A DNA stretch of 36,787 nucleotides from a virus (lineage: Duplodnaviria; Heunggongvirae; Uroviricota; Caudoviricetes), in the IMG/VR virus record IMGVR_UViG_2541047684_000007; one strand, written 5' to 3'. Shown here piece after piece: positions 5,371 to 35,073 of the stretch (the stretch's first letter is position 1; each line of letters begins with the position of its first letter). The notes beneath the pieces were generated by a model, which was not told the origin of the DNA, searched no databases, and saw nothing but the letters and a program-made list of their open reading frames with translations. The translations under genes and the position numbers were made by a program.

Positions 5371-5525
5371 ACCGCCTCCCGTTTATTATTTATCTTCTCA
5401 GCCAGCCGCTGTGCTTTCAGTGGATTTCTGATAACAGAAAGGCCGGGAAATACCCAGCCTCGCTTTGTAACGGAGTAGACGAAAGTGATCGCGCCTACCC
5501 GGATATTATCGTGAGGATGCGTCAT
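5343..5525 (-). CDS. Lambda orf60a-like protein
   Basis: 60 aa from the MTHPHD start, immediately upstream of exo, with its start overlapping the exo stop. Confidence 0.5.
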
Positions 5526-6984: not shown

Positions 6985-6989
6985 CCGTT

Positions 6990-7286
6990 TTATACCTCTG
7001 AATCAATATCAGCCTGATGGTGAGCAATGGTTTCAACTATGTACCGGATGTGTTCTGCCATGCGCTCCTGAAACTCAACATCGTCATCAAACGCACGGGT
7101 AATGGCTTTTTTGCTGGCCCCGTGGCGTTGTAAATGATCGATGCATAGCGATTCAAACAGGTGCTGGGGCAGGCCTTTTTCCATGTCGTCTGCCAGTTCT
7201 GCCTCTTTCTCTTCACGGGCGATCTGCTGGTAGTGACGCGCCCAGCTCTGAGCCTCAAGACGATCCTGAATGTAATAAGCGTTCAT
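6990..7286 (-). CDS. gam: Gam, RecBCD inhibitor (short GamS-length form)
   Basis: 98 aa beginning [21 protein letters not shown], which is the lambda GamS sequence. No longer in-frame ATG form is present in the track. Confidence 0.9.
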
Positions 7287-15183: not shown

Positions 15184-15707
15184 CTATCAAATCAAATACG
15201 CCAGCACACGACAAGGACTGCTGGCAAACGCCGCTTTGGCTTTTTGATGCACTGGATATTGAGTTTGGATTCTGGCTGGATTCGGCAGCGAGCGACAAAA
15301 ATGCTCTGTGCGCTCACTGGCTAACTGAGGACGACGACGCGCTCAATTCTGAGTGGGTAAGCCACGGTGCAATCTGGAATAACCCACCGTACAGCAATAT
15401 CAGGCCGTGGGTGGAAAAAGCCGCTGAGCAGTGTATACAACAGCGACAGACGGTAGTGATGCTTGTGCCAGAGGATATGTCTGTCGGATGGTTCAGCAAG
15501 GCTCTGGAGAGTGTTGACGAAGTTCGTATTATCACTGATGGACGGATTAATTTTATCGAACCATCGACAGGGCTGGAGAAGAAGGGAAACAGCAAAGGCT
15601 CCATGCTGCTGATTTGGCGACCGTTCATCAGTCCTCGACGGATGTTTACTACCGTATCCAAAGCGGCATTGATGGCGATCGGGCAGGGCGTCAGGAGGGC
15701 TGCATGA
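15180..15707 (+). CDS. Phage DNA N6-adenine methyltransferase (Dam-type)
   Basis: 175 aa from the ATG overlapping the ninB stop (ATGA). NPPY catalytic motif (WNNPPYSN). No adjacent restriction endonuclease gene. Confidence 0.8.
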
Positions 15708-15880
15708 GACGACAGCGACGAAGCATCACCGACATAATCTGCGAAAACTGCAAATACCTTCCAACGAAACGCTCCAGAAATAAACGCAAGCTAATCCCAA
15801 AAGAATCTGACGTAAAAACCTTCAATTACACAGCCCACCTGTGGGATATCCGGTGGCTAAGATATCGTGCGAGGAAATGA
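15704..15880 (+). CDS. ninE: NinE
   Basis: 58 aa, [58 protein letters not shown], matching lambda NinE. ATGA overlap with the methyltransferase stop. Confidence 0.8.
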
Positions 15881-17587: not shown

Positions 17588-18670
17588 TTAGAACTGATAA
17601 ACCAGACCTACAGCGACGATGTCGTCGGTATCAATACCAGCTGTTTTGGTAAACTTACTATCGTCAATTAAGTTGATTTTGTAATCAACAAAAGTGGACA
17701 TGTTTTTATTAAAGTAGTAAGTAGCACCGACATCGACATACTTGACTAAGTCTCGGTCACCATGAACACCAAGGTCTTTACCTTTTGACTGAAGGTAAGC
17801 AACAGATGGACGCAGACCGAAGTCAAACTGATATTGTGCTACTGCTTCAAAGTTTTGTGCTTTGTTTGCAATATGGTTATTATCAAAAACGGTCATATTC
17901 TGAGTTTCAGAATATGTGGTAGCCAGATAGATATTGTTCGCATCATATTTCAGGCCTGCAGCCCATACTTCCGCATTTTTGCCGGAGGCATTGAATTTGC
18001 TCTTACCATAGGCGACCTGACCGTCAGTGCGATCTGATTTAGCATAGGTTGCACCCACGCCGAATCCTTCATACTCATAAGTAGTGGAGAAACCGAAACC
18101 ATCACCATTGGCTTCAGTTACGTCAGTGCGGTCATTTTTACCCTGATACTGAGCAGCAAAGTTCAGGCCATCGACCAGACCAAAGAAGTCGTTGTTACGA
18201 TAAGTTGCAACACCAGTAGTGCGACCAGTCATGAACACATCTGTTTGGGTCCAGGTATCACCACCGAATTCTGGCAGAACGTCAGTCCACGCACCGATGT
18301 CGTATGCTACACCGTAGTTACGGCCGTAATCGATTGAGCCGTAATCACCAAATTTCAGGCCTGCAAATGCAAGACGGGTTTTGTCTTTGGAAGAACCTTG
18401 AGATTCAGCACGGTTGCCTTTGAATTCATATTCCCACTGACCGAAACCAGTCAGTTGATCGTTGATTTGGGTTTCACCTTTGAAGCCAAGACGGGCATAA
18501 GTAGTATCACCATCATCTGCATCATTAGAGGAGAAGTAGTGCTTGGCATTAACTTTCCCGTATAGATCCAGCTTGTTACTGTCTTTATTATAAATTTCAG
18601 CTGCCTGAGCAGACATCGCCATCAGTACTGATGCAGCTACAGCAGAAATTGCCACTGTTAATTTTTTCAT
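17588..18670 (-). CDS. nmpC: Outer-membrane general porin (NmpC/Lc/OmpC family), lysogenic-conversion moron
   Basis: 360 aa from the ATG at 18670. Signal peptide [23 protein letters not shown]. Near-identical to my recollection of DLP12 NmpC, with the typical porin C-terminus ...VAVGLVYQF. Opposite strand to the late operon; very AT-rich upstream region. Confidence 0.85.
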
Positions 18671-19107
18671 TGTACGCCCTTTTTTTGAACTTTTATTAAA
18701 AAATGATGTCACTGCGCGATAAATATTCATCTAATCAATGTGATTATTTCAAGATGTAAGTTTTAGTTTCTCATTTAATTTGTGAAGTAGATCTCTATTT
18801 TTATCTGAACCTTTTCTATCTAATCCTATTCATGGCTCTTGTCTGAACAAAAATAAATCTATTAGCTAATTTATATTAATGGCACTTATTTATAAGTGCT
18901 CTATAATTCTTTAGCTTAATTTAAACAAACTAAAAATAACATCGGAAATTATTAACTGGTTATTTGTTGAAGTTTTCTTATGCATTTGTGGTGGTGTTTT
19001 GAACACTCGGTGGCATTCTCACAAATATCATTTAGTAGTTTACGTACGTAAAAAATTGGTTATGCTGTTAAGAGTGGTTACTTCGTCACACAGCTTAAAC
19101 CCGCCGT

Positions 19108-20460: not shown

Positions 20461-20754
20461 TTATTGTGAGCAATACACACGCGCTTCCAGCGGAGTATAA
20501 ATGCCTAAAGTAATAAAACCGAGCAATCCATTTACGAATGTTTGCTGGGTTTCTGTTTTAACAACATTTTCTGCACCACCACAAATTTTTGCTGCATCGA
20601 CAGTTTTCTTCTGCCCAATTCCCGAAACGAAGAAATGATGGGTGATGGTTTCCTTTGGTGTTACTGCTGTAGGTTTGTTTCCAACAGTAAACGTCTGTTG
20701 AGCACATCCTGTAATAAGCATTGCCAGAGCGGCAGAAAACAACATTTTTTTCAT
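20461..20754 (-). CDS. bor: Bor lipoprotein (serum-resistance moron)
   Basis: 97 aa from MKKMLFSAALAMLITGC (lipobox), matching lambda Bor. Opposite strand to the late genes. Confidence 0.85.
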   Translation of the reverse strand: MKKMLFSAALAMLITGCAQQTFTVGNKPTAVTPKETITHHFFVSGIGQKKTVDAAKICGGAENVVKTETQQTFVNGLLGFITLGIYTPLEARVYCSQ

Positions 20755-21234
20755 CTTATTATCCTGCATTGTTAAAAACGGCAGAATCCTATGTGACAAC
20801 AATTAAACGATAGTTAAATGGATTGATGAAAATTAAAACTACACAGGTGGGCTCAGACTATTGGAGGAAGTTGGGGACACTCAGAATCCTGTGGAATGAA
20901 ATAAACCGGTCTATCCGTCCATTACCCTTTTAGCTGCGCTGTATCGTCGCCGTATTCCCGCATTAACCATGACCGTAGCCCGACGGGGAATTCCTTCTGC
21001 GTGAGTGTGCGGGAATAATTAAAAACGATGCACACCGGGTTTTTACCGCGTTAATGATTCGCGGGTTTATCCCGGTGCGATGGTGGAAGAAACAGGAAGC
21101 TGTATTACAGAAAGTGCTACTACTGTATCCCGATGCGATGTATGTAATGTGAGTCAGATAATGGCACAGGATGTGGTGATGTGGCAGTCTGGAACACAGG
21201 ATATATTGTCAGAATAAGACCCGTAGGAATAAAA

Positions 21235-22324: not shown

Positions 22325-22512
22325 GGGCGGCGACCTCGCGGTTTTTCACTATTTATGAAAATTTTTCAGGGAAAATCGTGTCGGTACTTCTCGAATATAA
22401 CTTTTTGTTTTTTTTAATATTGCATCCGTAAAGGTCCGACATGAAAGTGTCCGAAAATGCCTTTTTCTGGCGTTTTCATGTCGGGCCTTGTATTTGATAA
22501 TGGGTTGTTTTC
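22325..22512. other. cos site: cosN cohesive-end sequence plus cosB
   Basis: GGGCGGCGACCT at about 22325-22336 is the lambda 12-nt cohesive end, and the flanking sequence parallels the lambda cos region. Inverted repeat GGTCCGACATGAAA / TTTCATGTCGGGCC at about 22433-22487, immediately upstream of nu1. Confidence 0.8.
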
Positions 22513-23061
22513 ATGAAGGTTAATAAAAAGAGGCTTGCCGAAATTTTCAACGTGGACCCGCGGACGATTGAACGCTGGCAGTCTCAGGGACTCCCTTGCG
22601 CCTCCAAAGGTAGTAAGGGCATTGAATCTGTATTTGATACTGCCATGGCAATTCAGTGGTATGCGCAGAGGGAAACTGATATCGAAAACGAAAAGCTCCG
22701 CAAAGAACTGGACGATTTGCGTGCGGCAGCGGAGTCAGATTTACAACCCGGCACCATTGACTATGAACGCTACCGGCTCACAAAAGCGCAGGCAGATGCG
22801 CAGGAACTGAAAAATGCCCGTGAAGACGGAGTAGTGCTGGAAACTGAACTGTTTACCTTCATTCTGCAACGTGTGGCACAGGAGATTTCGGGGATACTTG
22901 TGCGTGTGCCGTTGACATTACAGCGTAAATATCCGGACATTTCACCATCACACCTTGATGTGGTGAAAACTGAAATCGCGAAAGCCTCCAATGTTGCAGC
23001 TAAGGCCGGTGAAAACGTGGGCGGGTGGATCGATGATTTCAGACGCGCAGAAGGCAGCTAA
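22513..23061 (+). CDS. nu1: Terminase small subunit Nu1
   Basis: 182 aa, [28 protein letters not shown]... homologous to lambda Nu1 (MEVNKKQLADIFGASIRTIQNWQEQGMP...). Confidence 0.9.
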
Positions 23062-24961
23062 TGCAGCCGGTGCGATAGCTACAGGGCTTTTATCTCTCAT
23101 TATTCCTGTTCCACTGACGACAGTTCAGTGGGCCAATAAACATTATTACCTTCCTAAAGAGTCGTCTTATACCCCGGGGCGATGGGAAACACTGCCGTTT
23201 CAGGTTGGCATCATGAACTGTATGGGCAACGATCTGATTCGCACGGTTAACCTGATTAAATCTGCCCGTGTTGGTTATACAAAGATGTTGCTGGGAGTGG
23301 AGGCTTATTTTATTGAGCATAAATCACGCAACAGCCTTCTTTTTCAGCCCACGGACTCAGCTGCTGAAGATTTTATGAAATCTCATGTTGAGCCAACGAT
23401 AAGGGATGTTCCTGCATTGCTGGAGCTGGCTCCATGGTTCGGAAGAAAACACCGCGATAATACGCTCACCCTGAAGCGTTTTTCCTCCGGTGTGGGGTTC
23501 TGGTGTCTGGGTGGTGCGGCAGCAAAAAACTACCGTGAAAAATCCGTGGATGTGGTCTGTTATGACGAGCTTTCCTCGTTCGAACCGGATGTTGAAAAAG
23601 AGGGTTCGCCAACCCTGCTGGGGGATAAACGTATTGAGGGCTCTGTATGGCCAAAATCCATTCGCGGCTCGACGCCTAAAATCAAAGGCTCCTGCCAGAT
23701 CGAAAAAGCCGCTAACGAGTCGGCACACTTCATGCGTTTTTATGTGCCCTGTCCGCACTGTGGGGAGGAGCAGTATCTGAAATTTGGCGATGATGCCTCG
23801 CCTTTCGGTCTTAAGTGGGAGAAGAATAAGCCAGAAAGTGTTTTCTACCTTTGTGAGCATCATGGCTGTGTGATCCATCAGTCTGAGCTTGACCAGAGTA
23901 ACGGGCGGTGGATCTGTGAAAACACGGGCATGTGGACCCGTGACGGCCTGATGTTTTTCAGCGCCCGGGGTGATGAAATTCCGCCGCCGCGCTCCATCAC
24001 TTTCCATATCTGGACGGCGTACAGTCCGTTCACCACCTGGGTACAGATTGTCTATGACTGGCTGGATGCACTGAAAGATCCCAACGGCCTGAAAACCTTT
24101 GTGAACACCACGCTGGGCGAGACCTGGGAAGAGGCTGTGGGCGAAAAACTCGATCACCAGGTGCTGATGGATAAGGTTGTGCGTTACACGGCGGCGGTGC
24201 CTGCCCGGGTGGTTTATCTGACGGCGGGCATTGACTCGCAGCGAAACCGTTTTGAGATGTATGTCTGGGGATGGGCTCCGGGAGAGGAAGCCTTTCTGGT
24301 GGATAAAATCATCATTATGGGGCGTCCCGATGAGGAAGAGACGCTGTTACGTGTGGATGCGGCGATCAACAAAAAATACCGCCATGCGGATGGCACCGAA
24401 ATGACCATTTCCCGTGTCTGCTGGGACACCGGGGGGATCGATGGTGAAATCGTCTACCAGAGGTCAAAAAAACACGGTGTTTTCCGTGTGCTGCCGGTAA
24501 AAGGCGCGTCTGTCTATGGCAAGCCGGTGATCACCATGCCGAAAACCCGCAATCAGCGGGGCGTTTATCTGTGTGAAGTGGGGACGGACACCGCAAAAGA
24601 AATTCTCTATGCCCGTATGAAAGCCGAGCCCACGCCTGCGGATGAAGCCACGTCGTATGCCATCCGTTTTCCTGATGATCCGGAGATTTTTTCGCAGACA
24701 GAGGCGCAGCAACTGGTCGCGGAAGAGCTTGTGGAGAAGTGGGAAAAAGGAAAGATGCGTCTGCTGTGGGATAACAAAAAGCGGCGTAACGAAGCGCTGG
24801 ACTGCCTGGTGTATGCCTACGCGGCATTACGTGTGTCCGTGCAACGCTGGCAGCTTGATCTGGCTGTACTGGCAAAATCCCGGGAAGAAGAGACGACCCG
24901 GCCAACCCTTAAAGAACTGGCAGCGAAGCTGTCCGGAGGAGTGAATGGTTACAGTCGCTGA
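23033..24961 (+). CDS. A: Terminase large subunit A
   Basis: About 642 aa from the ATG at 23033, overlapping the Nu1 3' end as in lambda. Extensive similarity to lambda gpA (YYLPKES...GRWETLPFQ...KSARVGY...). Confidence 0.9.
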
Positions 24962-25151
24962 ACTGCAGGCGCTGCGTCAGGCGCGCCTTGATTTATTAAC
25001 CGGTAAACGGGTGGTGTCTGTCCAGAAAGATGGTCGAAGAATTGAATATACGGCGGCCTCTCTGGATGAGCTTAACCGGGCGATCAATGATGCGGAGTTG
25101 GTACTGGGGACAACCCGCCGTCGCCGTCGTCCGCTGGGAGTGAGGTTATGA
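24945..25151 (+). CDS. W: Head-tail joining protein W (copy 1)
   Basis: 68 aa, homologous to lambda W (...LLTGKRVVSVQKDGRRIEYTAASLDEL...). Confidence 0.85.
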   Translation: MVTVAELQALRQARLDLLTGKRVVSVQKDGRRIEYTAASLDELNRAINDAELVLGTTRRRRRPLGVRL

Positions 25152-26233
25152 AACGAACGCCTGTCCTGATTGATGTGAACGGCGTTCCGCTTCGTGAGAG
25201 TCTCAGCTACAACGGGGGCGGCGCAGGATTTGGCGGGCAAATGGCGGAGTGGTTGCCACCAGCGCAGAGTGCCGATGCAGCCCTGCTGCCTGCGTTGCGT
25301 CTGGGGAATGCCCGGGCAGATGATCTGGTGCGCAATAACGGGATAGCGGCTAATGCGGTGGCTCTGCATAAGGATCACATTGTCGGGCATATGTTTCTGA
25401 TCAGCTACCGTCCGAACTGGCGCTGGCTGGGGATGCGGGAGACCGCGGCAAAAAGCTTTGTCGATGAGGTGGAGGCGGCCTGGTCGGAATACGCCGAAGG
25501 GATGTTTGGCGAGATCGACGTGGAAGGAAAACGCACGTTCACGGAATTTATCCGTGAAGGTGTGGGCGTTCATGCGTTTAACGGCGAAATCTTTGTGCAG
25601 CCGGTCTGGGATACGGAAACCACGCAGTTATTCCGTACGCGTTTTAAAGCCGTGAGTCCGAAACGGGTGGACACGCCAGGACACGGTATGGGGAACCGTT
25701 TTCTGCGGGCCGGTGTGGAGGTCGATCGATATGGTCGTGCCGTTGCGTACCATATCTGTGAGGATGATTTTCCGTTCTCTGGTAGTGGACGATGGGAACG
25801 GATCCCGCGTGAACTTCCCACCGGGCGTCCGGCCATGCTGCATATTTTCGAGCCGGTGGAGGACGGGCAGACCCGTGGGGCTAATCAGTTTTACAGCGTC
25901 ATGGAACGGCTGAAGATGCTCGATTCCCTGCAGGCAACACAGCTTCAGTCGGCCATAGTGAAGGCGATGTATGCAGCGACGATTGAAAGTGAACTTGATA
26001 CCGAAAAGGCCTTTGAATATATCGCCGGCGCGCCACAGGAGCAGAAGGATAATCCGCTTATTAATATTCTGGAGAAGTTCTCCAGCTGGTATGACACGAA
26101 TAACGTGACACTGGGCGGTGTCAAAATTCCGCACCTTTTCCCTGGTGATGATCTGAAACTACAGACTGCGCAGGATTCATGGATAAGGTCGTGCATTACA
26201 CGGCGGCGGTGCCTGCCCGGGTGGTTTATCTGA
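25148..26233 (+). pseudogene. B: Truncated portal gene B (N-terminal ~344 codons), interrupted at the duplication junction
   Basis: Identical in-frame to the first ~344 aa of the intact portal at 27160..28752, then diverges at about 26179/26180 into out-of-frame terminase-A sequence, ending at a stop at 26233. Confidence 0.7.
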
Positions 26234-26973
26234 CGGCGGGCATTGACTCGCAGCGAAACCGTTTTGAGATGTATGTCTGGGGATGGGCACCGGGAGAGGA
26301 AGCTTTTCTGGTGGATAAAATCATCATTATGGGGCGTCCTGATGAGGAAGAGACGCTGTTACGTGTGGATGCGGCGATCAACAAAAAATACCGCCATGCA
26401 GACGGAACCGAAATGACCATTTCCCGTGTCTGCTGGGACATCGGGGGGATCGATGGCGAAATCGTTTATCAGAGGTCAAAAAAACACGGTGTTTTCCGGG
26501 TGCTGCCGGTAAAAGGCGCGTCTGTCTATGGCAAGCCGGTGATCACCATGCCGAAAACCCGCAATCAGCGGGGCGTTTATCTGTGTGAAGTGGGGACGGA
26601 CACCGCAAAAGAAATTCTCTATGCCCGTATGAAAGCCGAGCCCACGCCTGCGGATGAAGCCACGTCGTATGCCATCCGTTTTCCTGATGATCCGGAGATT
26701 TTTTCGCAGACAGAGGCGCAGCAACTGGTCGCGGAAGAGCTTGTGGAGAAGTGGGAAAAAGGAAAGATGCGTCTGCTGTGGGATAACAAAAAGCGGCGTA
26801 ACGAAGCGCTGGACTGCCTGGTGTATGCCTACGCGGCATTACGTGTGTCCGTGCAACGCTGGCAGCTTGATCTGGCTGTACTGGCAAAATCCCGGGAAGA
26901 AGAGACGACCCGGCCAACCCTTAAAGAACTGGCAGCGAAGCTGTCCGGAGGAGTGAATGGTTACAGTCGCTGA
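26179..26973 (+). pseudogene. Terminase A 3' fragment (C-terminal ~264 codons) from duplication copy 2
   Basis: Track ORF beginning [25 protein letters not shown]..., which is the C-terminal part of A (compare [12 protein letters not shown]... in the intact A). An ATG at 26179-26181 is formed at the junction with AGGA 4 nt upstream. Confidence 0.7.
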
Positions 26974-27163
26974 ACTGCAGGCGCTGCGTCAGGCGCGCCT
27001 TGATTTATTAACCGGTAAACGGGTGGTGTCTGTCCAGAAAGATGGACGAAGAATTGAATATACGGCGGCCTCTCTGGATGAGCTTAACCGGGCGATCAAT
27101 GATGCGGAGTCGGTACTGGGGACAACCCGGTGTCGCCGTCGTCCGCTGGGAGTGAGGTTATGA
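26957..27163 (+). CDS. W: Head-tail joining protein W (copy 2)
   Basis: 68 aa, differing from copy 1 at two residues (ESVLGTTRCRRRP versus ELVLGTTRRRRRP). Confidence 0.8.
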   Translation: MVTVAELQALRQARLDLLTGKRVVSVQKDGRRIEYTAASLDELNRAINDAESVLGTTRCRRRPLGVRL

Positions 27164-28752
27164 AACGAACGCCTGTCCTGATTGATGTGAACGGCGTTCC
27201 GCTTCGTGAGAGTCTCAGCTACAACGGGGGCGGTGCAGGATTTGGCGGGCAAATGGCTGAGTGGTTGCCACCGGCGCAGAGTGCCGATGCGGCCCTGCTG
27301 CCCGCGTTGCGTCTGGGGAATGCCCGGGCAGATGATCTGGTGCGCAATAACGGGATAGCGGCTAATGCGGTGGCCCTGCATAAGGATCATATTGTCGGGC
27401 ATATGTTTCTGATCAGCTACCGTCCGAACTGGCGCTGGCTGGGGATGCGGGAGACTGCGGCAAAAAGTTTTGTCGATGAGGTGGAGGCGGCCTGGTCGGA
27501 ATACGCCGAAGGGATGTTTGGCGAGATCGACGTGGAAGGGAAACGCACGTTTACGGAATTTATCCGTGAAGGTGTGGGCGTTCATGCGTTTAACGGCGAA
27601 ATCTTTGTGCAGCCGGTCTGGGATACGGAAACCACGCAGTTATTCCGTACGCGTTTTAAAGCCGTGAGTCCGAAACGGGTGGACACGCCTGGACACGGTA
27701 TGGGGAACCGTTTTCTGCGGGCCGGTGTGGAGGTCGATCGATATGGCCGTGCCGTCGCGTACCATATCTGTGAGGATGATTTTCCGTTCTCTGGTAGTGG
27801 ACGATGGGAACGGATCCCGCGTGAACTTCCCACCGGGCGTCCGGCCATGCTGCATATTTTCGAGCCGGTGGAGGACGGGCAGACCCGTGGGGCTAATCAG
27901 TTTTACAGCGTCATGGAACGGCTGAAGATGCTCGATTCCCTGCAGGCAACACAGCTTCAGTCGGCCATAGTGAAGGCGATGTATGCAGCGACGATTGAAA
28001 GTGAACTTGATACCGAAAAGGCCTTTGAATATATCGCCGGCGCGCCACAGGAGCAGAAGGATAATCCGCTTATTAATATTCTGGAGAAGTTCTCCAGCTG
28101 GTATGACACGAATAACGTGACACTGGGCGGTGTCAAAATTCCGCACCTTTTCCCTGGTGATGATCTGAAACTACAGACAGCGCAGGATTCAGACAATGGA
28201 TTTTCTGCGCTTGAACAGGCGCTGCTGCGGTATATCGCCGCCGGTCTTGGCGTTTCCTACGAACAGTTGTCCCGTGATTACTCGAAGGTCAGTTACTCAA
28301 GTGCCCGCGCCTCCGCCAATGAGTCGTGGCGCTATTTTATGGGGCGGCGAAAATTTATTGCGTCCCGGCTGGCCACGCAGATGTTTTCCTGCTGGCTGGA
28401 AGAGGCACTTCTTCGGGGGATTATTCGTCCGCCACGGGCACGTTTTGATTTTTATCAGGCGCGATCAGCCTGGTCACGGGCAGAGTGGATTGGTGCCGGA
28501 AGAATGGCCATTGACGGGCTCAAGGAGGTTCAGGAATCAGTGATGCGCATTGAGGCCGGACTGAGCACGTATGAGAAAGAGCTGGCGCTGATGGGCGAGG
28601 ATTATCAGGACATTTTCCGCCAGCAGGTCAGGGAATCTGCTGAGCGGCAAAAAGCCGGACTCTCACGTCCGGTGTGGATAGAGCAGGCGTATCAGCAGCA
28701 GATAGCGGAGAGTCGCAGGCCGGAAGAGGAGACAACACCACGTGAGACGTAA
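27160..28752 (+). CDS. B: Portal protein B (intact)
   Basis: 530 aa from MKRTPVLIDVNGVPLRESLSYNGGGAGFGGQMAEWLPP..., a lambda-family portal. Confidence 0.9.
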   Translation: MKRTPVLIDVNGVPLRESLSYNGGGAGFGGQMAEWLPPAQSADAALLPALRLGNARADDLVRNNGIAANAVALHKDHIVGHMFLISYRPNWRWLGMRETAAKSFVDEVEAAWSEYAEGMFGEIDVEGKRTFTEFIREGVGVHAFNGEIFVQPVWDTETTQLFRTRFKAVSPKRVDTPGHGMGNRFLRAGVEVDRYGRAVAYHICEDDFPFSGSGRWERIPRELPTGRPAMLHIFEPVEDGQTRGANQFYSVMERLKMLDSLQATQLQSAIVKAMYAATIESELDTEKAFEYIAGAPQEQKDNPLINILEKFSSWYDTNNVTLGGVKIPHLFPGDDLKLQTAQDSDNGFSALEQALLRYIAAGLGVSYEQLSRDYSKVSYSSARASANESWRYFMGRRKFIASRLATQMFSCWLEEALLRGIIRPPRARFDFYQARSAWSRAEWIGAGRMAIDGLKEVQESVMRIEAGLSTYEKELALMGEDYQDIFRQQVRESAERQKAGLSRPVWIEQAYQQQIAESRRPEEETTPRET

Positions 28753-30247
28753 TCTTTCACACATTATTGCCGCAGCATTCAATGAACCGCTGCTTCTGGA
28801 GCCCGCCTATGCGCGGGTTTTCTTTTGCGCGCTCGGGCGCGAGATGGGGGCAGCAAGTCTTTCGGTACCACAACAGCAGGTACAGTTTGATGCTCCCGGA
28901 ATGCTGGCTGAAACGGACGAGTACATGGCCGGAGGTAAACGACCGGCCCGTGTTTACCGGGTGGTGAACGGTATTGCTGTACTGCCGGTGACCGGCACGC
29001 TGGTGCACCGGCTGGGGGGGATGCGGCCATTTTCCGGAATGACAGGCTATGACGGCATTGTCGCCTGTCTTCAGCAGGCAATGGCGGATAGCCAGGTGCG
29101 GGGCGTACTGCTGGACATTGACAGTCCGGGCGGGCAGGCCGCCGGCGCGTTTGACTGCGCTGACATGATTTACCGCCTCCGTCAGCAGAAGCCGGTCTGG
29201 GCACTGTGCAATGACACGGCCTGTTCTGCAGCCATGCTGCTGGCGTCGGCCTGCTCCCGACGGCTGGTTACCCAGACATCCCGTATCGGCTCCATTGGCG
29301 TGATGATGAGCCATGTCAGCTATGCCGGTCATCTGGCGCAGGCCGGTGTGGATATCACGCTGATTTACTCAGGGGCGCACAAGGTGGATGGCAATCAGTT
29401 TGAAGCGTTGCCGGCAGAGGTTCGCCAGGACATGCAGCAGCGGATTGATGCGGCGCGCCGGATGTTTGCCGAAAAAGTGGCGATGTATACCGGTCTGTCT
29501 GTTGATGCCGTCACGGGAACAGAGGCTGCCGTTTTTGAAGGTCAGTCCGGCATTGAGGCCGGGCTGGCGGATGAATTAATCAATGCGTCGGATGCCATCA
29601 GTGTGATGGCCACGGCGCTGAACAGTAATGTCAGAGGAGGCACTATGCCGCAATTAACTGCAACGGAAGCCGCCGCGCAGGAGAACCAGCGAGTGATGGG
29701 GAGCCTGACATGCCAGGAAGCGAAAGGACGTGAACAGCTTGCCACGATGCTGGCAGGACAACAGGGCATGAGCGTTGAACAGGCCCGGGCGATTCTGGCC
29801 GCGGCGGCACCGCAGCAGCCGGTGGCATCCACGCAGAGTGAAGCCGATCGCATTATGGCGTGTGAAGAAGCGAACGGTCGTGAACAACTGGCGGCAACGC
29901 TGGCGGCGATGCCGGAGATGACGGTGGAAAAAGCCCGCCCGATCCTGGCTGCTTCACCGCAGGCGGATGCCGGACCATCACTCCGTGATCAGATCATGGC
30001 ACTGGATGAGGCAAAAGGGGCTGAGGCGCAGGCTGAACAGCTGGCTGCCTGCCCGGGAATGACAGTGGAGAGCGCCCGGGCTGTGCTGGCTGCGGGATCA
30101 GGTAAGGCAGAACCGGTCTCTGCATCCACAACCGCCATGTTTGAACATTTCATGGCGAACCATTCACCGGCAGCGGTACAGGGTGGCGTGGCACAGACGT
30201 CAGCAGACGGTGATGCGGACGTGAAAATGCTCATGGCCATGCCATGA
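28742..30247 (+). CDS. C: Head maturation protease C (S49/ClpP-like), with nested Nu3-type scaffold region
   Basis: 501 aa. N-terminal two-thirds homologous to lambda gpC (AFNEPLLLEPAYARVFFCAL...GIAVLPVTGTLV...WALCNDTACSAA...GSIGVMMSH...). C-terminal region carries three tandem ~45-aa repeats. Confidence 0.9.
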   Translation: MRRNLSHIIAAAFNEPLLLEPAYARVFFCALGREMGAASLSVPQQQVQFDAPGMLAETDEYMAGGKRPARVYRVVNGIAVLPVTGTLVHRLGGMRPFSGMTGYDGIVACLQQAMADSQVRGVLLDIDSPGGQAAGAFDCADMIYRLRQQKPVWALCNDTACSAAMLLASACSRRLVTQTSRIGSIGVMMSHVSYAGHLAQAGVDITLIYSGAHKVDGNQFEALPAEVRQDMQQRIDAARRMFAEKVAMYTGLSVDAVTGTEAAVFEGQSGIEAGLADELINASDAISVMATALNSNVRGGTMPQLTATEAAAQENQRVMGSLTCQEAKGREQLATMLAGQQGMSVEQARAILAAAAPQQPVASTQSEADRIMACEEANGREQLAATLAAMPEMTVEKARPILAASPQADAGPSLRDQIMALDEAKGAEAQAEQLAACPGMTVESARAVLAAGSGKAEPVSASTTAMFEHFMANHSPAAVQGGVAQTSADGDADVKMLMAMP

Positions 30248-30283
30248 AGTCAGTGCTGACCATCAATAGGAGGTTTTTACAAT

Positions 30284-30631
30284 ATGGTGACGAAAACCAT
30301 CACTGAACAGCGTGCGGAAGTACGTATTTTTGCCGGTAATGATCCGGCTCATACCGCCACAGGCAGCAGCGGGATTTCCTCGCCAACACCGGCACTGACG
30401 CCCCTGATGCTGGATGAAGCCACCGGGAAACTGGTGGTCTGGGACGGACAGAAAGCCGGTAGTGCGGTTGGCATACTGGTACTGCCGCTTGAAGGCACAG
30501 AGACGGCGCTGACGTATTACAAGTCGGGAACCTTTGCGACGGAGGCAATCCACTGGCCTGAAAGTGTGGATGAACACAAAAAGGCCAACGCCTTTGCTGG
30601 CAGTGCCCTGAGTCACGCGGCGCTGCCGTAA
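30284..30631 (+). CDS. D: Head decoration protein D
   Basis: 115 aa, homologous to lambda gpD (DPAHTATG...TPLMLD...KLVVWDG...YYKSGTF...). Strong SD AGGAGG. Confidence 0.9.
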   Translation: MVTKTITEQRAEVRIFAGNDPAHTATGSSGISSPTPALTPLMLDEATGKLVVWDGQKAGSAVGILVLPLEGTETALTYYKSGTFATEAIHWPESVDEHKKANAFAGSALSHAALP

Positions 30632-30688
30632 CACGTTATCAGGCCACCGCGGTGGCCTGACTGATTTCTGAATGAAAGGAACTGATTT

Positions 30689-31717
30689 ATGGGATTGTTT
30701 ACGACCCGCCAGTTACTCGGTTATACCGAACAAAAAGTTAAATTTCGTGCGCTGTTTCTGGAGCTGTTTTTCCGCCGTACGGTGAATTTCCATACCGAAG
30801 AGGTGATGCTGGACAAAATTACCGGAAAAACGCCGGTGGCGGCCTATGTCTCCCCGGTTGTTGAAGGAAAAGTGCTGCGTCATCGTGGTGGTGAAACCCG
30901 CGTGTTGCGTCCGGGCTACGTCAAGCCGAAACACGAATTTAATTACCAGCAGGCGGTTGAGCGCCTTCCTGGTGAAGATCCATCTCAACTGAATGATCCG
31001 GCTTACCGCCGTCTGCGTATCATTACCGATAACCTCAAACAGGAAGAGCACGCGATTGTCCAGGTGGAAGAAATGCAGGCGGTAAATGCTGTGTTGTATG
31101 GCAAATACACCATGGAAGGAGACCAGTTCGAGAAAATTGAGGTCGATTTTGGCAGGTCGACGAAGAATAACATCACTCAGGGTAGTGGTAAGGAGTGGTC
31201 AAAACAGGATCGTGACACGTTCGATCCTACACATGATATTGACCTCTACTGCGACCTGGCCAGCGGTCTTGTGAATATTGCCATTATGGACGGTACCGTC
31301 TGGCGTCTTCTGAATGGTTTTAAGCTGTTCCGCGAAAAACTGGATACCCGTCGCGGTTCAAATTCTCAACTCGAAACGGCAGTGAAAGATCTGGGCGCAG
31401 TGGTGTCCTTCAAGGGGTATTACGGCGATCTGGCCATTGTGGTGGCGAAAACGTCTTATATAGCAGAAGACGGTATCGAAAAACGTTATCTTCCAGATGG
31501 CATGCTGGTTCTGGGGAATACTGCTGCAGATGGGATCCGTTGTTACGGTGCCATTCAGGATGCTCAGGCGTTGTCCGAAGGTGTGGTGGCCTCTTCCCGT
31601 TATCCGAAACACTGGCTGACGGTAGGGGATCCCGCCCGTGAATTTACCATGACGCAGTCCGCGCCGCTGATGGTGTTGCCGGACCCGGATGAGTTTGTGG
31701 TGGTACAGGTGAAATAA
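30689..31717 (+). CDS. E: Major capsid protein E
   Basis: 342 aa, homologous throughout to lambda gpE (LFLELFFR..., PGYVKPKHE..., IVQVEEMQAVNAVLYGKYTM..., KLDTRRGSNSQLETAVKDLG..., GDPAREFTMTQSAPLMVLPDPDEF). Confidence 0.95.
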   Translation: MGLFTTRQLLGYTEQKVKFRALFLELFFRRTVNFHTEEVMLDKITGKTPVAAYVSPVVEGKVLRHRGGETRVLRPGYVKPKHEFNYQQAVERLPGEDPSQLNDPAYRRLRIITDNLKQEEHAIVQVEEMQAVNAVLYGKYTMEGDQFEKIEVDFGRSTKNNITQGSGKEWSKQDRDTFDPTHDIDLYCDLASGLVNIAIMDGTVWRLLNGFKLFREKLDTRRGSNSQLETAVKDLGAVVSFKGYYGDLAIVVAKTSYIAEDGIEKRYLPDGMLVLGNTAADGIRCYGAIQDAQALSEGVVASSRYPKHWLTVGDPAREFTMTQSAPLMVLPDPDEFVVVQVK

Positions 31718-31768
31718 TCCGTGAGCGGGGGCGAAATGCCCCCGTGTCTTTTTTCACAGGGGGCTGAT

Positions 31769-32143
31769 ATGGCAACGAAAGAGCAAAATCTGAAACGGCT
31801 TGATGAACTGGCCCTGATTCTGGGGCGTGAGCCGGATATATCCGGGAGTGCCGCAGAGATAGCGCAGCGGGTGGCAGAATGGGAAGAGGAAATGCAGTCA
31901 TCCGGCGATGATGTACAGGTTATGAATATGGATATCCGGGAGCGGGAAACCGCGGCTCATGATGTTCGTGAGGAAACATCCGGCGCGTTAACGCGCATCA
32001 GAGTTCTGACCTGCCTCCATCTCTGTGGCGTTGATGGTGAAACGGGGGAATCCGTTGAGCTTGCGGATGTTGGTCGGGTGATTCTGATTATGTCCTCAGA
32101 TGCAAAAACACACGTTGATGGTGGAATGGCTGTTTATGCGTGA
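31769..32143 (+). CDS. FI: DNA packaging protein FI
   Basis: About 124 aa from the ATG at 31769, in the FI position between E and FII. Acidic, as expected for FI; sequence diverged from lambda FI. Confidence 0.7.
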   Translation: MATKEQNLKRLDELALILGREPDISGSAAEIAQRVAEWEEEMQSSGDDVQVMNMDIRERETAAHDVREETSGALTRIRVLTCLHLCGVDGETGESVELADVGRVILIMSSDAKTHVDGGMAVYA

Positions 32144-32489
32144 TTTTCAGAATGCCTTTGATGCCGCCCTTGCCGGGGTGGACAGTACGATTGTTGAAGT
32201 GATGGGCATCAGTGCGCAGTTCACCTCCGGTGCACAGCGTGGCGGCGAGGTTCATGGCGTTTTTGACGATCCGGAGTCGCTGGGTTTTGCCAGTAGTGGG
32301 ATCCGTATTGAAGGAAGTAACCCGTCATTATTTGTGCTTACGGATACGGTTTGTGCTGTACGGCGTGGTGACACGCTGACCATTAACGGCGAGATGTTCT
32401 GGGTGGACCGTGTTTCTCCGGATGACGGAGGGAGTTGTTATCTCTGGCTCAACCGGGGGCAACCACCTGCCGCCAGCCGTCGCCGCTGA
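32136..32489 (+). CDS. FII: Head-tail connector protein FII
   Basis: 117 aa from MRDFQNAFDAAL..., homologous to lambda FII (MADFDNLFDAAI...GVFDDPE...SLFV.TD...RRGDTLTI....FWVDRVSPDDGGSC.LWL). Confidence 0.85.
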   Translation: MRDFQNAFDAALAGVDSTIVEVMGISAQFTSGAQRGGEVHGVFDDPESLGFASSGIRIEGSNPSLFVLTDTVCAVRRGDTLTINGEMFWVDRVSPDDGGSCYLWLNRGQPPAASRRR

Positions 32490-32500
32490 AAGGGGGATGT

Positions 32501-33079
32501 ATGGCCATAAAAGGTCTTGAGCAGGCCGTTGAAAACCTCAGCCGTATCAGCAAAACGGCAGTGCCTGGTGCCGCCGCAATGGCCATTAACCGCGTTGCTT
32601 CATCCGCGATATCGCAGTCGGCGTCACTGGTTGCCCGTGAGACAAAGGTACGCCGGAAACTGGTAAAGGAAAGGGCCAGGCTGAAAAGGGCCACGGTCAA
32701 AAATCCGCAGGCCAGAATCAAAGTTAACCGGGGGGATTTGCCCGTAATCAGGCTGGGTAATGCGCGGGTTGTCCTTTCGCGCCGCAGGCGTCGTAAAAAG
32801 GGGCAGCGTTCATCCCTGAAAGGTGGCGGCAGCGTGCTTGTGGTGGGTAACCGTCGTATTCCCGGCGCGTTTATTCAGCAACTGAAAAATGGCCGCTGGC
32901 ATGTCATGCAGCGTGTGGCCGGGAAAAACCGTTACCCCATTGATGTGGTGAAAATTCCGATGGCGGTGCCGCTGACCACGGCGTTTAAACAGAATATTGA
33001 GCGGATACGGCGTGAGCGTCTTCCGAAAGAGCTGGGCTATGCGCTGCAGCATCAACTGAGGATGGTAATAAAGCGATGA
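32501..33079 (+). CDS. Z: Tail completion protein Z
   Basis: 192 aa from the ATG at 32501, in the lambda Z position; basic protein. Confidence 0.8.
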   Translation: MAIKGLEQAVENLSRISKTAVPGAAAMAINRVASSAISQSASLVARETKVRRKLVKERARLKRATVKNPQARIKVNRGDLPVIRLGNARVVLSRRRRRKKGQRSSLKGGGSVLVVGNRRIPGAFIQQLKNGRWHVMQRVAGKNRYPIDVVKIPMAVPLTTAFKQNIERIRRERLPKELGYALQHQLRMVIKR

Positions 33080-33471
33080 AACATACTGAATTCCGTGCAG
33101 CCGTACTGGATGCACTGGAAAAACATGACACCGAGGCGACGCTTTTTGATGGTCGCCCCGCTGTTTTTGATGAGGCGGATTTTCCGGCAATTGCCGTTTA
33201 TCTCACCGGCGCTGAATACACGGGCGAAGAGCTGGACAGCGATACCTGGCAGGCGGAGCTGCATATTGAAGTTTTCCTGCCTGCTCAGGTGCCGGATTCA
33301 GAGCTGGATTCGTGGATGGAAAGCCGGATTTATCCGGCGATGAGCGATATCCCGGCACTGTCAGATTTGATCACCAGTATGGTGGCCAGTGGCTATGACT
33401 ACCGGCGCGACGATGATGCGGGCCTGTGGAGTTCAGCCGATCTGACTTATGTCATTACCTATGAAATGTGA
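33076..33471 (+). CDS. U: Tail terminator protein U
   Basis: 131 aa, ATGA overlap with the Z stop, in the lambda U position. Confidence 0.85.
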
Positions 33472-33478
33472 GGACGAT

Positions 33479-34219
33479 ATGCCAACACCAAATCCTCTGG
33501 CACCGGTGAAAGGGGCCGGAACCACACTGTGGGTTTATAACGGGAGCGGCGACCCTTATGCAAACCCGCTTTCAGACAATGACTGGTCGCGTCTGGCAAA
33601 AATTAAAGACCTGACGCCCGGCGAACTGACCGCTGAGTCCTATGACGACAGTTATCTCGATGATGAAGATGCGGACTGGACCGCGACCGGGCAGGGGCAG
33701 AAATCCGCCGGAGATACCAGCTTCACGCTGGCGTGGATGCCCGGAGAGCAGGGGCAGCAGGCGCTGCTGGCGTGGTTTAATGAAGGTGATACCCGTGCCT
33801 ATAAAATCCGCTTCCCGAACGGCACGGTCGATGTGTTCCGTGGCTGGGTCAGCAGTATCGGTAAGGCGGTGACGGCGAAGGAAGTGATCACCCGTACGGT
33901 GAAGGTCACCAATGTGGGCCGTCCGTCAATGGCAGAAGATCGCAGTACGGTGACGGCGGCAACCGGTATGACCGTGACGCCTGCCAGCTCCTCGGTGGTG
34001 AAAGGGCAGAGCACCACGCTGACCGTGGCCTTCCAGCCGGAGGGCGCAACTGACAAGAGCTTCCGTGCGGTGTCAGCGGATAAAACAAAAGCCACCGTGT
34101 CGGTCAGTGGTATGACCATCACCGTGAACGGCGTTGCTGCAGGCAAGGTCAACATTCCGGTTGTATCCGGTAATGGTGAACTTGCTGCGGTTGCAGAAAT
34201 CACTGTCACCGACAGTTAA
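33479..34219 (+). CDS. V: Major tail tube protein V (with C-terminal Ig-like domain)
   Basis: 246 aa from [20 protein letters not shown]..., near-identical to lambda gpV. Confidence 0.95.
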
Positions 34220-34234
34220 TCCGGAGAGTCAGCG

Positions 34235-34657
34235 ATGTTCCTGAAAACCGAATCATTTGAACATAACGGCGTGACCGTCACGCTTTCTGAACTGTCAGCC
34301 CTGCAGCGTATTGAGCATCTCGCCCTGATGAAACAGCAGGCAGAACAGGCGGAGTCAGACAGCAACCGGCAGGTTACTGTGGAAGACGCCATCAGAACCG
34401 GTGCTTTTGTGGTGGCGATGTCCCTGTGGCATAACCATCCGCAGAAGACAAAGCAGCCTTCCATGAATGAAGCCGTTAAACAGATTGAGCAGGAAGTGCT
34501 TACCACCTGGCCCGCGGAGGCAATTTCTCATGCTGAAAACGTGGTGTACCGGCTGTCCGGTATGTATGGGTTTGTGGTGAATGATGCCCCTGACCAGGCA
34601 GAGGACTCCGGGCCTGCAGAGCCTGTTTCTGCGGGAAAGTGTTCGACGGTGAGCTGA
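34235..34657 (+). CDS. G: Tail assembly chaperone G
   Basis: 140 aa, lambda gpG-like. Slippery heptamer GGGAAAG at 34633-34639 near the 3' end. Confidence 0.85.
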   Translation: MFLKTESFEHNGVTVTLSELSALQRIEHLALMKQQAEQAESDSNRQVTVEDAIRTGAFVVAMSLWHNHPQKTKQPSMNEAVKQIEQEVLTTWPAEAISHAENVVYRLSGMYGFVVNDAPDQAEDSGPAEPVSAGKCSTVS

Positions 34658-35073
34658 GTTTTGCCCTGAAACTGGCGCGAGAGATGGGGCGACCTGACTG
34701 GCGCGCCATGCTTGCCGGGATGTCATCCACGGAGTATGCCGACTGGCACCGCTTTTACAGTACCCATTATTTTCATGATGTTCTGCTGGATATGCACTTT
34801 TCCGGGCTGACGTACACTGTGCTCAGCCTGTTTTTCAGCGATCCGGATATGCATCCGCTGGATTTCAGTTTGCTGAACCGGCGTGAGGATGACGAAGAGC
34901 CTGAAGATGATGTGCTGATGCAGAAAGCGGCAGGGCTTACCGGAGGCGTCCGCTTTGACCCGGACGGAAATGAAGTTATCCCCGCTTCCCCGGATATGGC
35001 GGGCATGACGGAGGATGACGTAATGCTGATGACAGTATCAGAAGGGATCGCAGGAGGAGTCCGGTATGGCTGA
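34235..35073 (+). CDS. T: Tail assembly chaperone G-T fusion, via -1 programmed ribosomal frameshift at G GGA AAG
   Basis: Zero-frame codons GGA AAG at 34634-34639. The -1 frame continues as VFDGELSFALKLAREMGRPDW... to the stop at 35071-35073, the same arrangement as lambda G/GT. Confidence 0.75.

What the first reader, a model, noticed from the sequence alone, without database searches (positions are those of the whole stretch)
25148..26973. Duplication creates two potentially expressible fragments: portal N-terminal ~344 aa and terminase C-terminal ~264 aa
The truncated B ORF (25148..26233) keeps the native B start and its translational coupling to W, so a portal N-terminal fragment should be made whenever late genes are expressed. 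At the junction an ATG (26179-26181) sits 4 nt after AGGA, in frame with the A C-terminal coding sequence (26179..26973). That fragment would lack the N-terminal ATPase region; whether it retains a nuclease centre is not shown by the sequence. Truncated portal or terminase fragments could poison head assembly or packaging in trans, of this phage or of related superinfecting lambdoid phages, or simply cripple this prophage.
Basis: inference. Interest (0 to 1): 0.5.

Follow-up and report, generated by a model that had tools for sequence, protein, structure and literature searches.

The report
One-off tandem duplication in prophage
A 2-kb stretch of a phage-21-like prophage in one E. coli draft genome is written twice in a row, leaving a truncated portal gene and a truncated terminase gene. 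It is seen in no other genome, may partly reflect assembly error, and shows no sign of a selected function.

Summary
Window 24167-26178 and 26179-28190 are head-to-tail copies of a 2,012-bp unit, 98.5% identical, joined with 1 nt of microhomology.

This creates two truncated ORFs:
- B' (25148-26233) carries 344 aa of portal plus 17 out-of-frame aa.
- A-C' (26179-26973) is 264 aa and starts at the native Met379 of the large terminase.

Full-length A, two W genes and full-length B remain intact.

New here:
- A-C' keeps the whole RNase-H-like nuclease core (D401, E408, D465, E587, D590) and the C-terminal portal-binding end. It lacks the ATPase and the small-subunit-binding parts.
- B' ends just after the clip domain. 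It lacks the second stem helix, tunnel loop, second wing half and crown.
- The SD-like sequence before ATG 26179 is weak, and the ATG is overlapped by the B' reading frame.

The junction occurs only in E. coli HVH 7 (GCA_000456125.1). It is absent from 5,426 complete E. coli genomes, phage records, GTDB representatives, IMG/VR and JGI metagenomes.

The two copies are complementary mosaics of two natural alleles, which suggests scrambled phasing in a short-read assembly. The duplication needs read-level confirmation.

Most likely it is a recent, unstable, non-adaptive rearrangement, or else an artefact. Interest is low.

The parts
22325..22512 (+). Phage-21 cos region (cosN cohesive end 22325-22336; cosB R3/I1/R2/R1) directly upstream of Nu1
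   Evidence: 188/188 identical to bases 1-188 of phage 21 OL657228.1, whose record annotates these sites
22513..23061 (+). Nu1, small terminase subunit, 182 aa, single copy
   Evidence: Pfam Phage_Nu1, E=1.9e-81. 100% DNA identity to phage 21
23033..24961 (+). A, full-length large terminase, 642 aa. The mechanical ORF list starts it at 22991.
   Evidence: Pfam GpA_ATPase plus GpA_nuclease. Called as 642 aa in the NCBI record. 67% identical to lambda gpA with the same numbering up to residue 535
24167..26178 (+). Duplication copy 1 (2,012 bp): A codons 379-642, W, B codons 1-344
   Evidence: Offset-2012 identity profile and mismatch list
24945..25151 (+). W copy 1, head-tail adaptor, 68 aa, intact
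   Evidence: Pfam gpW, E=2.8e-22
25148..26233 (+). B': truncated portal, 344 aa of B plus a 17-aa out-of-frame tail. Native ATGA overlap with the W stop.
   Evidence: Pfam Phage_portal_2, profile positions 2-300 of 354. Residue 344 corresponds to lambda gpB 347, just after the clip domain. Tail sequence
26172..26181 (+). Novel joint: AGGA (26172-26175, from B codons Q342-D343), TTC, then ATG (26179-26181, the Met379 codon of A). The breakpoint lies at 26178/26179, with 1 nt (A) of microhomology.
   Evidence: Boundary alignment of both copies with their native contexts. Anti-SD duplex of -4.1 kcal/mol
26179..26973 (+). A-C': C-terminal 264 aa of the large terminase (residues 379-642). It holds the nuclease core, the coiled-coil helix and the portal-binding C-terminus.
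   Evidence: Pfam GpA_nuclease, profile positions 70-287 of 294. Catalytic acidic residues retained. AF2 model and Foldseek hits to terminase nucleases
26179..28190 (+). Duplication copy 2 (2,012 bp)
26957..27163 (+). W copy 2, 68 aa, intact. Differs from copy 1 at L52S and R59C.
27160..28752 (+). B, full-length portal, 530 aa
   Evidence: Pfam Phage_portal_2, profile positions 2-354 of 354. E=3.4e-214 to lambda portal 8K38
28742..30247 (+). C, S49 prohead protease/scaffold, 501 aa. First gene downstream of the duplication.
   Evidence: Pfam Peptidase_S49

Best explanation
This is a recent, strain-specific 2,012-bp head-to-tail duplication inside the late operon of a phage-21-like prophage integrated at icd in E. 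coli HVH 7.

How it formed (inferred): an illegitimate, essentially homology-free join linked B codon 344 to A codon 379. It involved, or was followed by exchange with, a second allele of the same head module. The short-read assembly then scrambled the phase of the two alleles.

What it does: it is a by-product, not a device. It leaves one intact A, two intact W genes and one intact B, and adds two truncated ORFs.

- B' is probably translated, because its native start and W coupling are unchanged. It lacks the inner stem helix, tunnel loop, second wing half and crown. It is therefore expected to be assembly-incompetent and largely inert or degraded.
- A-C' is a complete nuclease domain plus the portal-binding tail, without the ATPase or the Nu1-binding N-terminus. 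It sits behind a weak, badly spaced SD and inside the B' reading frame, so it is expected to be made at low level if at all.

Expected fate (inferred): the repeat should be unstable, because RecA, and on induction the prophage's own Red system, can collapse it to one copy. If the rest of the prophage is as in strain DA61218, the duplication takes the genome to about 51.8 kb. That is at or beyond the efficient lambda-type packaging limit.

Shown here: the anatomy, the domain content and the singleton status. Inferred: the formation mechanism, the expression levels and the lack of function.
For: Anatomy and junction:
- Anatomy; source genome.
- The junction has 1 nt of microhomology and no shared k-mer, so a k-mer graph cannot create it without reads that contain it.

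Singleton status:
- No place matching the junction in 5,426 complete E. coli genomes, although about 1,870 of them carry the module.
- None in 50,697 phage records, GTDB representatives, IMG/VR or JGI metagenomes.
- The 361-aa protein sits on exactly one contig of the 15-billion-protein collection.
- 0 of 80 IMG/VR relatives have a second copy of the unit.

Natural alleles rather than decay:
- Nearly all 31 differences are third-codon-position sites that match known alleles.

Prophage background:
- The prophage is otherwise identical to one in DA61218, which has no duplication: 100% over window 1-22500 and 6 mismatches over 28191-35247.

Domain content:
-.

Start strength:
-.

Instability and size:
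- exo, bet and gam are present at window 5522-7286.
- The DA61218 prophage is about 49.8 kb.
Against: - The two copies are complementary mosaics of two natural alleles. Each copy is at least 11 and at least 17 mismatches from any of 54 distinct natural alleles. The unordered pair ATCC 25922-type plus L019-type explains all but 4 of 2,012 columns, with 5 phase switches. Control natural pairs gain only 0-6 sites from such re-phasing, against 24 here.
- That shows the assembly graph here was tangled, so the tandem arrangement itself could be wrong.
- A duplication between sister chromosomes would give identical copies. A second allele has to be brought in by an extra event.
- The single-copy right flank (28363-29020) is also an unusual patchwork. 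Its best match among complete genomes is 99.7%.
- No reads, expression data or phenotype are available.
Confidence: 0.55

Rival explanations
1. Assembly artefact. HVH 7 carries two lambdoid prophages whose A-W-B-C regions are 98-99% identical (an ATCC 25922/DA61218-type allele and an L019-type allele). The short-read assembler threaded both alleles into one scaffold, joined by a spurious or chimeric link such as a read across a mate-pair circularisation junction. Such a read joins the end of a roughly 2-kb fragment to its start in the same orientation. On this view no tandem duplication, and no B' or A-C' ORF, exists in the cell.
For: - The two copies show a complementary-mosaic signature with about 5 phase switches, unlike natural allele pairs.
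- Both inferred parental alleles exist exactly in nature: the L019 allele is 100% identical in at least 18 complete genomes. Neither assembled copy does; the best matches are 99.4-99.6%.
- The single-copy right flank also alternates between the two allele types at 28363-29020, as if a second copy of that region exists elsewhere in the genome.
- Genomes that carry this module typically have about two places that match it (median 2).
- The scaffold ends inside the tape-measure gene, as happens at repeated prophage sequence.
- The junction is a singleton.
Against: - The join has only 1 nt of overlap and lies in an N-free sequence. Graph assemblers do not create such joins without reads that contain them, and single chimeric reads are normally discarded.
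- The right breakpoint (B nt 1031) does not coincide with any allele branch point.
- The left flank is cleanly one allele up to 24163.
Confidence: 0.33
2. The duplication is real, and one or both fragments act in trans. A-C' would compete with holoterminase for the portal, or nick DNA non-specifically. B' would co-assemble into defective portal rings. The result would be reduced yield of this phage or of superinfecting phage-21/lambda-type phages, acting as a crude packaging-interference or exclusion function.
For: - B' has the native, coupled start.
- A-C' contains an intact nuclease fold and the C-terminal region, which in lambda TerL is the portal-docking tether (PMC9026076 and PMC4856287).
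- Isolated TerL nuclease domains can be active nucleases (T4 and RB49 C-domains, PMC3074133).
- From my own recollection, not checked here: the T4 gp17 C-terminal domain inhibits in vitro packaging in trans (Kanamaru et al. 2004, J Biol Chem 279:40795).
Against: - It is a singleton with no sign of conservation or spread.
- Neither fragment hits a PADLOC model.
- The A-C' start is weak and occluded.
- B' lacks the elements that line the channel and complete the wing and crown.
- Established lambda genetics (my own knowledge): amber fragments of A and B are recessive in the complementation tests that defined these genes. Aam42 terminase is complemented in trans (PMC4856287).
- Any poison would hit the prophage's own progeny first.
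Confidence: 0.07

Closest known systems
Spontaneous tandem duplications in phage lambda genomes (classical work of the 1970s by Emmons, Bellett, Busse and Baldwin; recalled from my own knowledge, not checked here)
   Same: A head-to-tail repeat of a few kb inside a lambdoid genome. It has a novel joint with little or no homology, leaves one functional copy of each interrupted gene, and is expected to be lost by homologous recombination.
   Different: Those were isolated in the laboratory, usually from deletion phages in which extra DNA is advantageous. Here the event sits in a natural prophage that is already near full size. The two copies carry different alleles, and the event is known only from a draft assembly.
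Decayed lambdoid prophages with truncated or fused A and B genes, e.g. E. coli O55:H7 RM12579 and strain NJS001
   Same: The same two genes are broken by illegitimate joins, leaving ORFs annotated as partial terminase or portal. Nuclease-only 'terminase gpA endonuclease subunit' ORFs are common in E. coli.
   Different: Those are deletions. The A N-terminus is fused to the B C-terminus, W is lost, and no intact copy remains, so they inactivate the phage. Here the join runs the opposite way (B N-terminus to A C-terminus), and intact A, W and B are all retained.
False duplications in assemblies caused by two diverged copies or haplotypes of one region
   Same: Adjacent near-identical copies, differing only at sites where two real alleles differ, with the phase mixed between the copies.
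   Different: Such artefacts normally sit at contig joins or gaps. Here the joint is inside N-free sequence and has no overlap that would explain a mis-join.
Packaging-interference proteins of phage-inducible chromosomal islands (a Ppi/Rpp-type proteins that target helper terminase; PICI biology reviewed in PMC9026076)
   Same: Only the idea: a resident element makes a protein that diverts or blocks a lambda-type packaging machine.
   Different: Those are dedicated, conserved genes acting on TerS, carried by satellites that benefit from the diversion. Here the candidates are accidental fragments of the phage's own TerL and portal. There is no conservation and no beneficiary.

Membership tests
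Tandem segmental duplication (illegitimate-recombination type) | Two adjacent direct copies with no spacer | tested here: met
   24167-26178 and 26179-28190, period 2,012 bp, 98.5% identity
Tandem segmental duplication (illegitimate-recombination type) | One novel joint linking the downstream end of the unit to its upstream end, with little or no homology | tested here: met
   ...GCGCAGGATTC[A]TGGATAAGG...; a single shared A between the native B and A contexts
Tandem segmental duplication (illegitimate-recombination type) | Physical support: junction-spanning reads and two-fold read depth over the unit | not testable with these tools
   No read data are available. The phase-scrambled copies make this test necessary.
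Lambda-type large terminase gpA (applied to A-C') | N-terminal TerS-binding segment and packaging ATPase domain (PF05876) | tested here: not met
   No GpA_ATPase hit. The fragment starts at residue 379.
Lambda-type large terminase gpA (applied to A-C') | RNase-H-like nuclease domain with its acidic catalytic residues | tested here: met
   PF20454, E=6.8e-50, profile positions 70-287 of 294. D401, E408, D465, E587 and D590 are present and are 90-100% conserved in 23 homologues. The model is confident from residue 371, with beta-strand 1 at 395-403. Top Foldseek hits are Sf6 gp2, HCMV UL89 and HK97 TerL nuclease domains. Catalysis itself was not tested.
Lambda-type large terminase gpA (applied to A-C') | C-terminal coiled-coil helix and portal-docking tail | tested here: met
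   Residues 555-642 are present and align with lambda gpA 554-638. The role of this region is taken from PMC9026076 and PMC4856287. Binding was not tested.
Lambda-family portal protein gpB (applied to B') | Complete portal fold: wing, stem (two helices), clip, tunnel loop, crown | tested here: not met
   B' ends at residue 344, which is lambda gpB 347. Lambda domains are wing 24-249 and 368-452, stem 250-279 and 343-367, clip 280-342, crown 453-511 (PMC10721106; alignment). Pfam covers profile positions 2-300 of 354.
Anti-phage defence or interference gene | Match to a known defence family | tested here: not met
   0 PADLOC hits for both fragments
Anti-phage defence or interference gene | Conservation or recurrence of the arrangement across genomes | tested here: not met
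   The junction is found only in GCA_000456125.1.

The most novel reading that the evidence does not exclude
The duplication is real, and the fragments it creates act as dominant-negative inhibitors of head assembly or DNA packaging. The candidates are the native-start portal N-terminal fragment and/or the nuclease-plus-portal-tether fragment of TerL. They would act on superinfecting phage-21/lambda-type phages. This would be an example of how an accidental rearrangement in a prophage can instantly create a packaging-interference (exclusion) function.
Probability: 0.04. Interest if true: 0.55.

Novelty: new member of a known kind. Interest (0 to 1): 0.13.

Why it matters
As it stands, it matters little. 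It is one more structural variant, or an assembly error, in one of thousands of near-identical E. coli prophages.

It has two modest uses:
- It is a caution for annotation. The GenBank entries EQN36207.1 and EQN36208.1 are truncation products of a possibly mis-assembled region.
- If it is confirmed by reads, it offers a natural construct for a simple test. One could ask whether a TerL nuclease-plus-tether fragment or a clip-containing portal fragment interferes with lambda-type packaging.

Only a positive result in that experiment would make it interesting.

Tried and rejected
1. Three O55:H7 genomes and strain NJS001 looked like partial matches across the junction. Their annotation shows they are A-B deletion fusions with other breakpoints, not this junction or its reciprocal.

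2. The exact 264-aa A-C' protein also occurs on two ENA metagenome contigs.
- Both are contig-start truncations of a normal A gene.
- One begins with a Nextera adapter followed by native A sequence.
- Their DNA differs from copy 2 at 16 or more sites.
- They are therefore not independent evidence for the junction.

3. I tested whether each copy is simply a natural mosaic allele.
- A natural allele 1 mismatch from copy 1 exists across 24270-24500.
- Across 25020-25400, and over the whole unit, none exists.

4. I asked whether ATCC 25922, whose icd prophage is near-identical to the HVH 7 prophage, carries the L019 allele in its second prophage. It is not among the genomes at 99.8% or better. I did not pursue this further.

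5. A sequence search of A against the PDB found no solved relative. I therefore used an AlphaFold model plus Foldseek.

6. Ortega et al. 2007, on the gpA maturation domain, is not held in the library. Literature searches for dominant-negative portal fragments, and for prophage terminase/portal duplications, found nothing relevant.

7. I considered biological routes to complementary mosaics, namely repeated intramolecular double crossovers between the copies. I rejected this as less parsimonious than mis-phasing, because single crossovers, which delete the repeat, should be far more frequent.
Full report
**1. What is in the sequence**

The window carries the left arm of a lambdoid late operon:

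| Feature | Coordinates | Note |
|---|---|---|
| Nu1 | 22513-23061 | |
| A | 23033-24961 | 642 aa |
| W | 24945-25151 | |
| B' | 25148-26233 | 361-aa ORF |
| A-C' | 26179-26973 | 264-aa ORF |
| W, second copy | 26957-27163 | |
| B | 27160-28752 | 530 aa |
| C | 28742-30247 | |
| D, E | 30284-31717 | |

- Comparing the window with itself at an offset of 2,012 bp gives about 98.5% identity from 24167 to 26178 and background identity outside.
- This is therefore a head-to-tail duplication with no spacer.
- The joint reads ...GCGCAGGATTC-A-TGGATAAGG....
- The native B context continues ...GGATTCAGACAATGG.... The native A context is ...CAGGTGCTGATGGATAAGG.... The two parents share only the single A at the breakpoint.
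- ATG 26179 is the ordinary Met379 codon of A. The AGGA three nucleotides upstream comes from B codons Q342-D343.
- B' is 344 residues of B plus 17 out-of-frame residues, ending at TGA 26231-26233.
- The B' start overlaps the W stop (ATGA) exactly as in copy 2.

**2. Where it comes from, and how common it is**

- An exact look-up of the 361-aa protein returns a single contig: scaffold KE698876.1 of E. coli HVH 7 (4-7315031), GCA_000456125.1. There both fragments are annotated as 'portal protein' and 'large terminase'.
- The window starts at the integrase next to icd. Over its first 22.5 kb it is 100% identical to a prophage found in DA61218 and SCU-112, and in ATCC 25922, where IS elements interrupt it.
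- The cos region and the segment from Nu1 to the N-terminal part of A are 100% identical to phage 21.
- Downstream, 28191-35247 differs from DA61218 at only six sites, all between 28363 and 29020. None of these relatives has the duplication.
- No place matching the joint was found in 5,426 complete E. coli genomes, although about 1,870 of them carry the module.
- It is also absent from 50,697 phage records, GTDB species representatives, IMG/VR and JGI metagenome contigs.
- None of 80 IMG/VR relatives has a second copy of the unit within 4.5 kb of B.
- The exact 264-aa protein does occur on two ENA contigs. These are contig-start truncations of a normal A gene, and one begins with a Nextera adapter.
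- The event is a singleton.

**3. Is the tandem arrangement physically real?**

- The 31 differences between the copies are almost all at third codon positions and coincide with alleles known from other prophages. They are allelic variation, not decay or sequencing error.
- I assembled a panel of 78 natural alleles of the unit, 54 of them distinct. Copy 1 is at least 11 mismatches, and copy 2 at least 17, from every allele in the panel.
- The unordered pair of the ATCC 25922 allele and the 'L019' allele accounts for all but 4 of the 2,012 columns, if the phase is allowed to switch five times. The switches fall between 24328/24388, 24487/25034, 25034/25099, 25291/25363 and 25744/26167.
- In a leave-two-out control on 60 natural allele pairs, allowing such re-phasing gained only 0-6 sites, against 24 here.
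- The L019 allele is a real haplotype, 100% identical in at least 18 complete genomes. Neither assembled copy matches any complete genome better than about 99.3%.
- Complementary mosaics are what a de Bruijn-graph assembler produces when it passes twice through a chain of SNP bubbles and uses each branch once. Biological routes exist, such as repeated reciprocal double crossovers between direct repeats without loss of the repeat, but they are much less likely.
- The single-copy right flank also alternates between the two allele types at 28363-29020. It has no exact match among complete genomes; the best is 99.7%.
- These results show the assembly was tangled here. They leave open that HVH 7 has two separate prophages whose alleles were threaded into one scaffold.
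- Against a pure artefact: the joint has no overlap from which a graph could create it, and the sequence contains no N. Reads containing the joint must have existed. They could be genuine, or chimeric, for example across a mate-pair circularisation junction, which would produce exactly this topology.
- I put a real duplication at roughly 0.6 and an artefact at roughly 0.35. Only the reads or a PCR can settle it.

**4. What the terminase fragment A-C' contains**

- The terminase aligns with lambda gpA at 67% identity, with identical numbering up to residue 535.
- Met379 lies 22 residues before the conserved GIDSQ motif that contains D401.
- E408, D465 (CWD), E587 (lambda E586, in the NEALD motif) and D590 all follow. 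All are invariant or at least 90% conserved among 23 homologues down to 43% identity.
- I recall D401, E408, D465 and E586 as the residues studied in lambda TerL by Arens, Duffy and Feiss (2019). That paper is cited in PMC9026076, but I did not read it.
- An AlphaFold model of residues 301-642 (mean pLDDT 80) is low-confidence before residue about 370 and high-confidence after it.
- In the model, a short helix at 375-379 is followed by beta-strand 1 at 395-403 and the rest of an alpha/beta domain.
- The best PDB matches of that domain are the nuclease domains of Sf6 gp2, HCMV UL89, HK97 TerL and HSV pUL15, followed by RuvC.
- A-C' therefore begins in the inter-domain linker. It contains the complete nuclease core, the distal helix proposed to form a coiled coil, and the C-terminal portal-docking tether (roles from PMC9026076 and PMC4856287).
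- The Pfam profile positions it lacks (3-69 of PF20454) correspond to residues 323-378, which are not part of the folded nuclease core in the model.
- It lacks the Nu1-binding N-terminus and the ATPase domain. It could not be positioned at cos and could not translocate DNA.

**5. What the portal fragment B' contains**

- The portal is closely related to lambda gpB (8K38, E=3.4e-214). Residue 344 corresponds to lambda residue 347.
- The published lambda domain limits are wing 24-249 and 368-452, stem 250-279 and 343-367, clip 280-342, and crown 453-511 (PMC10721106).
- On these limits, B' has the first wing half, the first stem helix and the clip.
- It lacks the second stem helix, the tunnel loop, the second wing half and the crown.
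- Such a fragment cannot complete a portal subunit.

**6. Would the fragments be made, and would they matter?**

- B' should be translated like B.
- For A-C', the best anti-SD pairing upstream of ATG 26179 is -4.1 kcal/mol with a 3-nt spacer. The values for W, B, C and D are -9.5, -8.5, -9.1 and -10.9. Nu1 (-3.1) and E (-5.6) are also weak, so SD strength alone does not decide expression.
- In addition, ribosomes translating B' run over this ATG and terminate 55 nt downstream of it. This should hinder independent initiation. I therefore expect little A-C' (inference).
- As for effects, isolated TerL nuclease domains can cut DNA weakly and non-specifically (PMC3074133).
- From memory, the T4 gp17 C-domain inhibits packaging in trans, so interference is conceivable.
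- On the other side, classical lambda complementation with amber mutants in A and B shows that N-terminal fragments are recessive (my own knowledge). A terminase defective in prohead binding is complemented in trans (PMC4856287).
- Neither fragment matches a defence-system model, and nothing indicates selection.

**7. Consequences for the prophage**

- All essential genes remain intact, so the prophage is not inactivated at the gene level.
- The prophage encodes exo, bet and gam (window 5522-7286). On induction, the 2-kb repeats should recombine efficiently and regenerate single-copy genomes.
- In DA61218 the same prophage spans about 49.8 kb, from icd to the icd' remnant, and includes sitABCD cargo.
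- If HVH 7 is alike beyond the scaffold end, the duplication brings the genome to about 51.8 kb, or about 107% of lambda length.
- That is at or beyond the roughly 105% limit for efficient lambda packaging (my own knowledge: Feiss et al. 1977). Lytic growth should then select against the duplication.

**8. Verdict**

The finding is a correct reading of the deposited sequence. What it describes is an ordinary kind of event: a unique, probably very recent and unstable tandem duplication in a common prophage, or possibly an assembly artefact. The suggested poisoning role has no support beyond plausibility. Interest is low.

Noticed in passing
window 28363-29020: The single-copy region just right of the duplication (3' part of B and 5' part of C) alternates between L019-type alleles (28363, 28527, 28530, 28716, 29017, 29020) and DA61218-type alleles at the sites in between. 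No complete E. coli genome matches it better than 99.7%. This hints that a second copy of this region exists elsewhere in HVH 7.
   Followed up: partly
window 26172-26190 versus 28184-28205 and 24155-24176: The hexamer ATGGAT occurs at the A breakpoint and again 4 nt downstream of the B breakpoint, and both parents have CAGG a few nt upstream. The joint does not use this microhomology. It lacks the intervening 4 nt, so the event is either a 1-nt join or a slipped microhomology join.
   Followed up: no
L001 4867-7034 (E. coli O55:H7 RM12579) and L002 3867-6656 (strain NJS001): Other prophages with this head module carry the opposite kind of rearrangement: deletions that fuse the N-terminal part of A to the C-terminal part of B, removing W. 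In NJS001 the fusion is annotated as one 929-aa 'portal protein'.
   Followed up: partly
proteins P0042, P0066, P0069, P0094, P0104, P0121: Several E. coli proteins combine Phage_Nu1 (PF07471) with GpA_nuclease (PF20454) and have no ATPase domain. They are Nu1-to-A-C-terminus fusions, some on contigs of 126-367 kb. Nuclease-only or fused gpA remnants seem to recur in cryptic prophages.
   Followed up: no
window 17589-18671 (-), 20462-20755 (-), 8676-9257 (+), 15181-15708 (+): Prophage cargo and accessory genes, read from the identical DA61218 annotation: an OmpC-family porin between Q and the lysis genes, iss/bor, sieB, and an N6-adenine methyltransferase. In DA61218 the right end of the prophage also carries sitABCD.
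   Followed up: no
L008 9218-10727 (E. coli ATCC 25922) and one search hits H97-H102: The copy of this prophage in ATCC 25922 has a frameshifted C (protease/scaffold) gene and IS3-family insertions in the early region. That widely used reference strain therefore carries a defective version.
   Followed up: no
L093 1-22 (ENA ERZ652325 NODE_3751): This metagenome contig begins with the Nextera transposase adapter (…AGATGTGTATAAGAGACAG) fused to native A sequence. The untrimmed adapter created an apparent 264-aa 'terminase' ORF identical to A-C'.
   Followed up: yes
window 24945-25151 versus 26957-27163: The two intact W genes differ at two residues (L52S, R59C). The duplicated A segment differs at R384H and T466I, the latter next to the catalytic D465. 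Ile466 is the phage-21/Nissle allele and Thr466 the SCU-112/lambda-like allele.
   Followed up: partly
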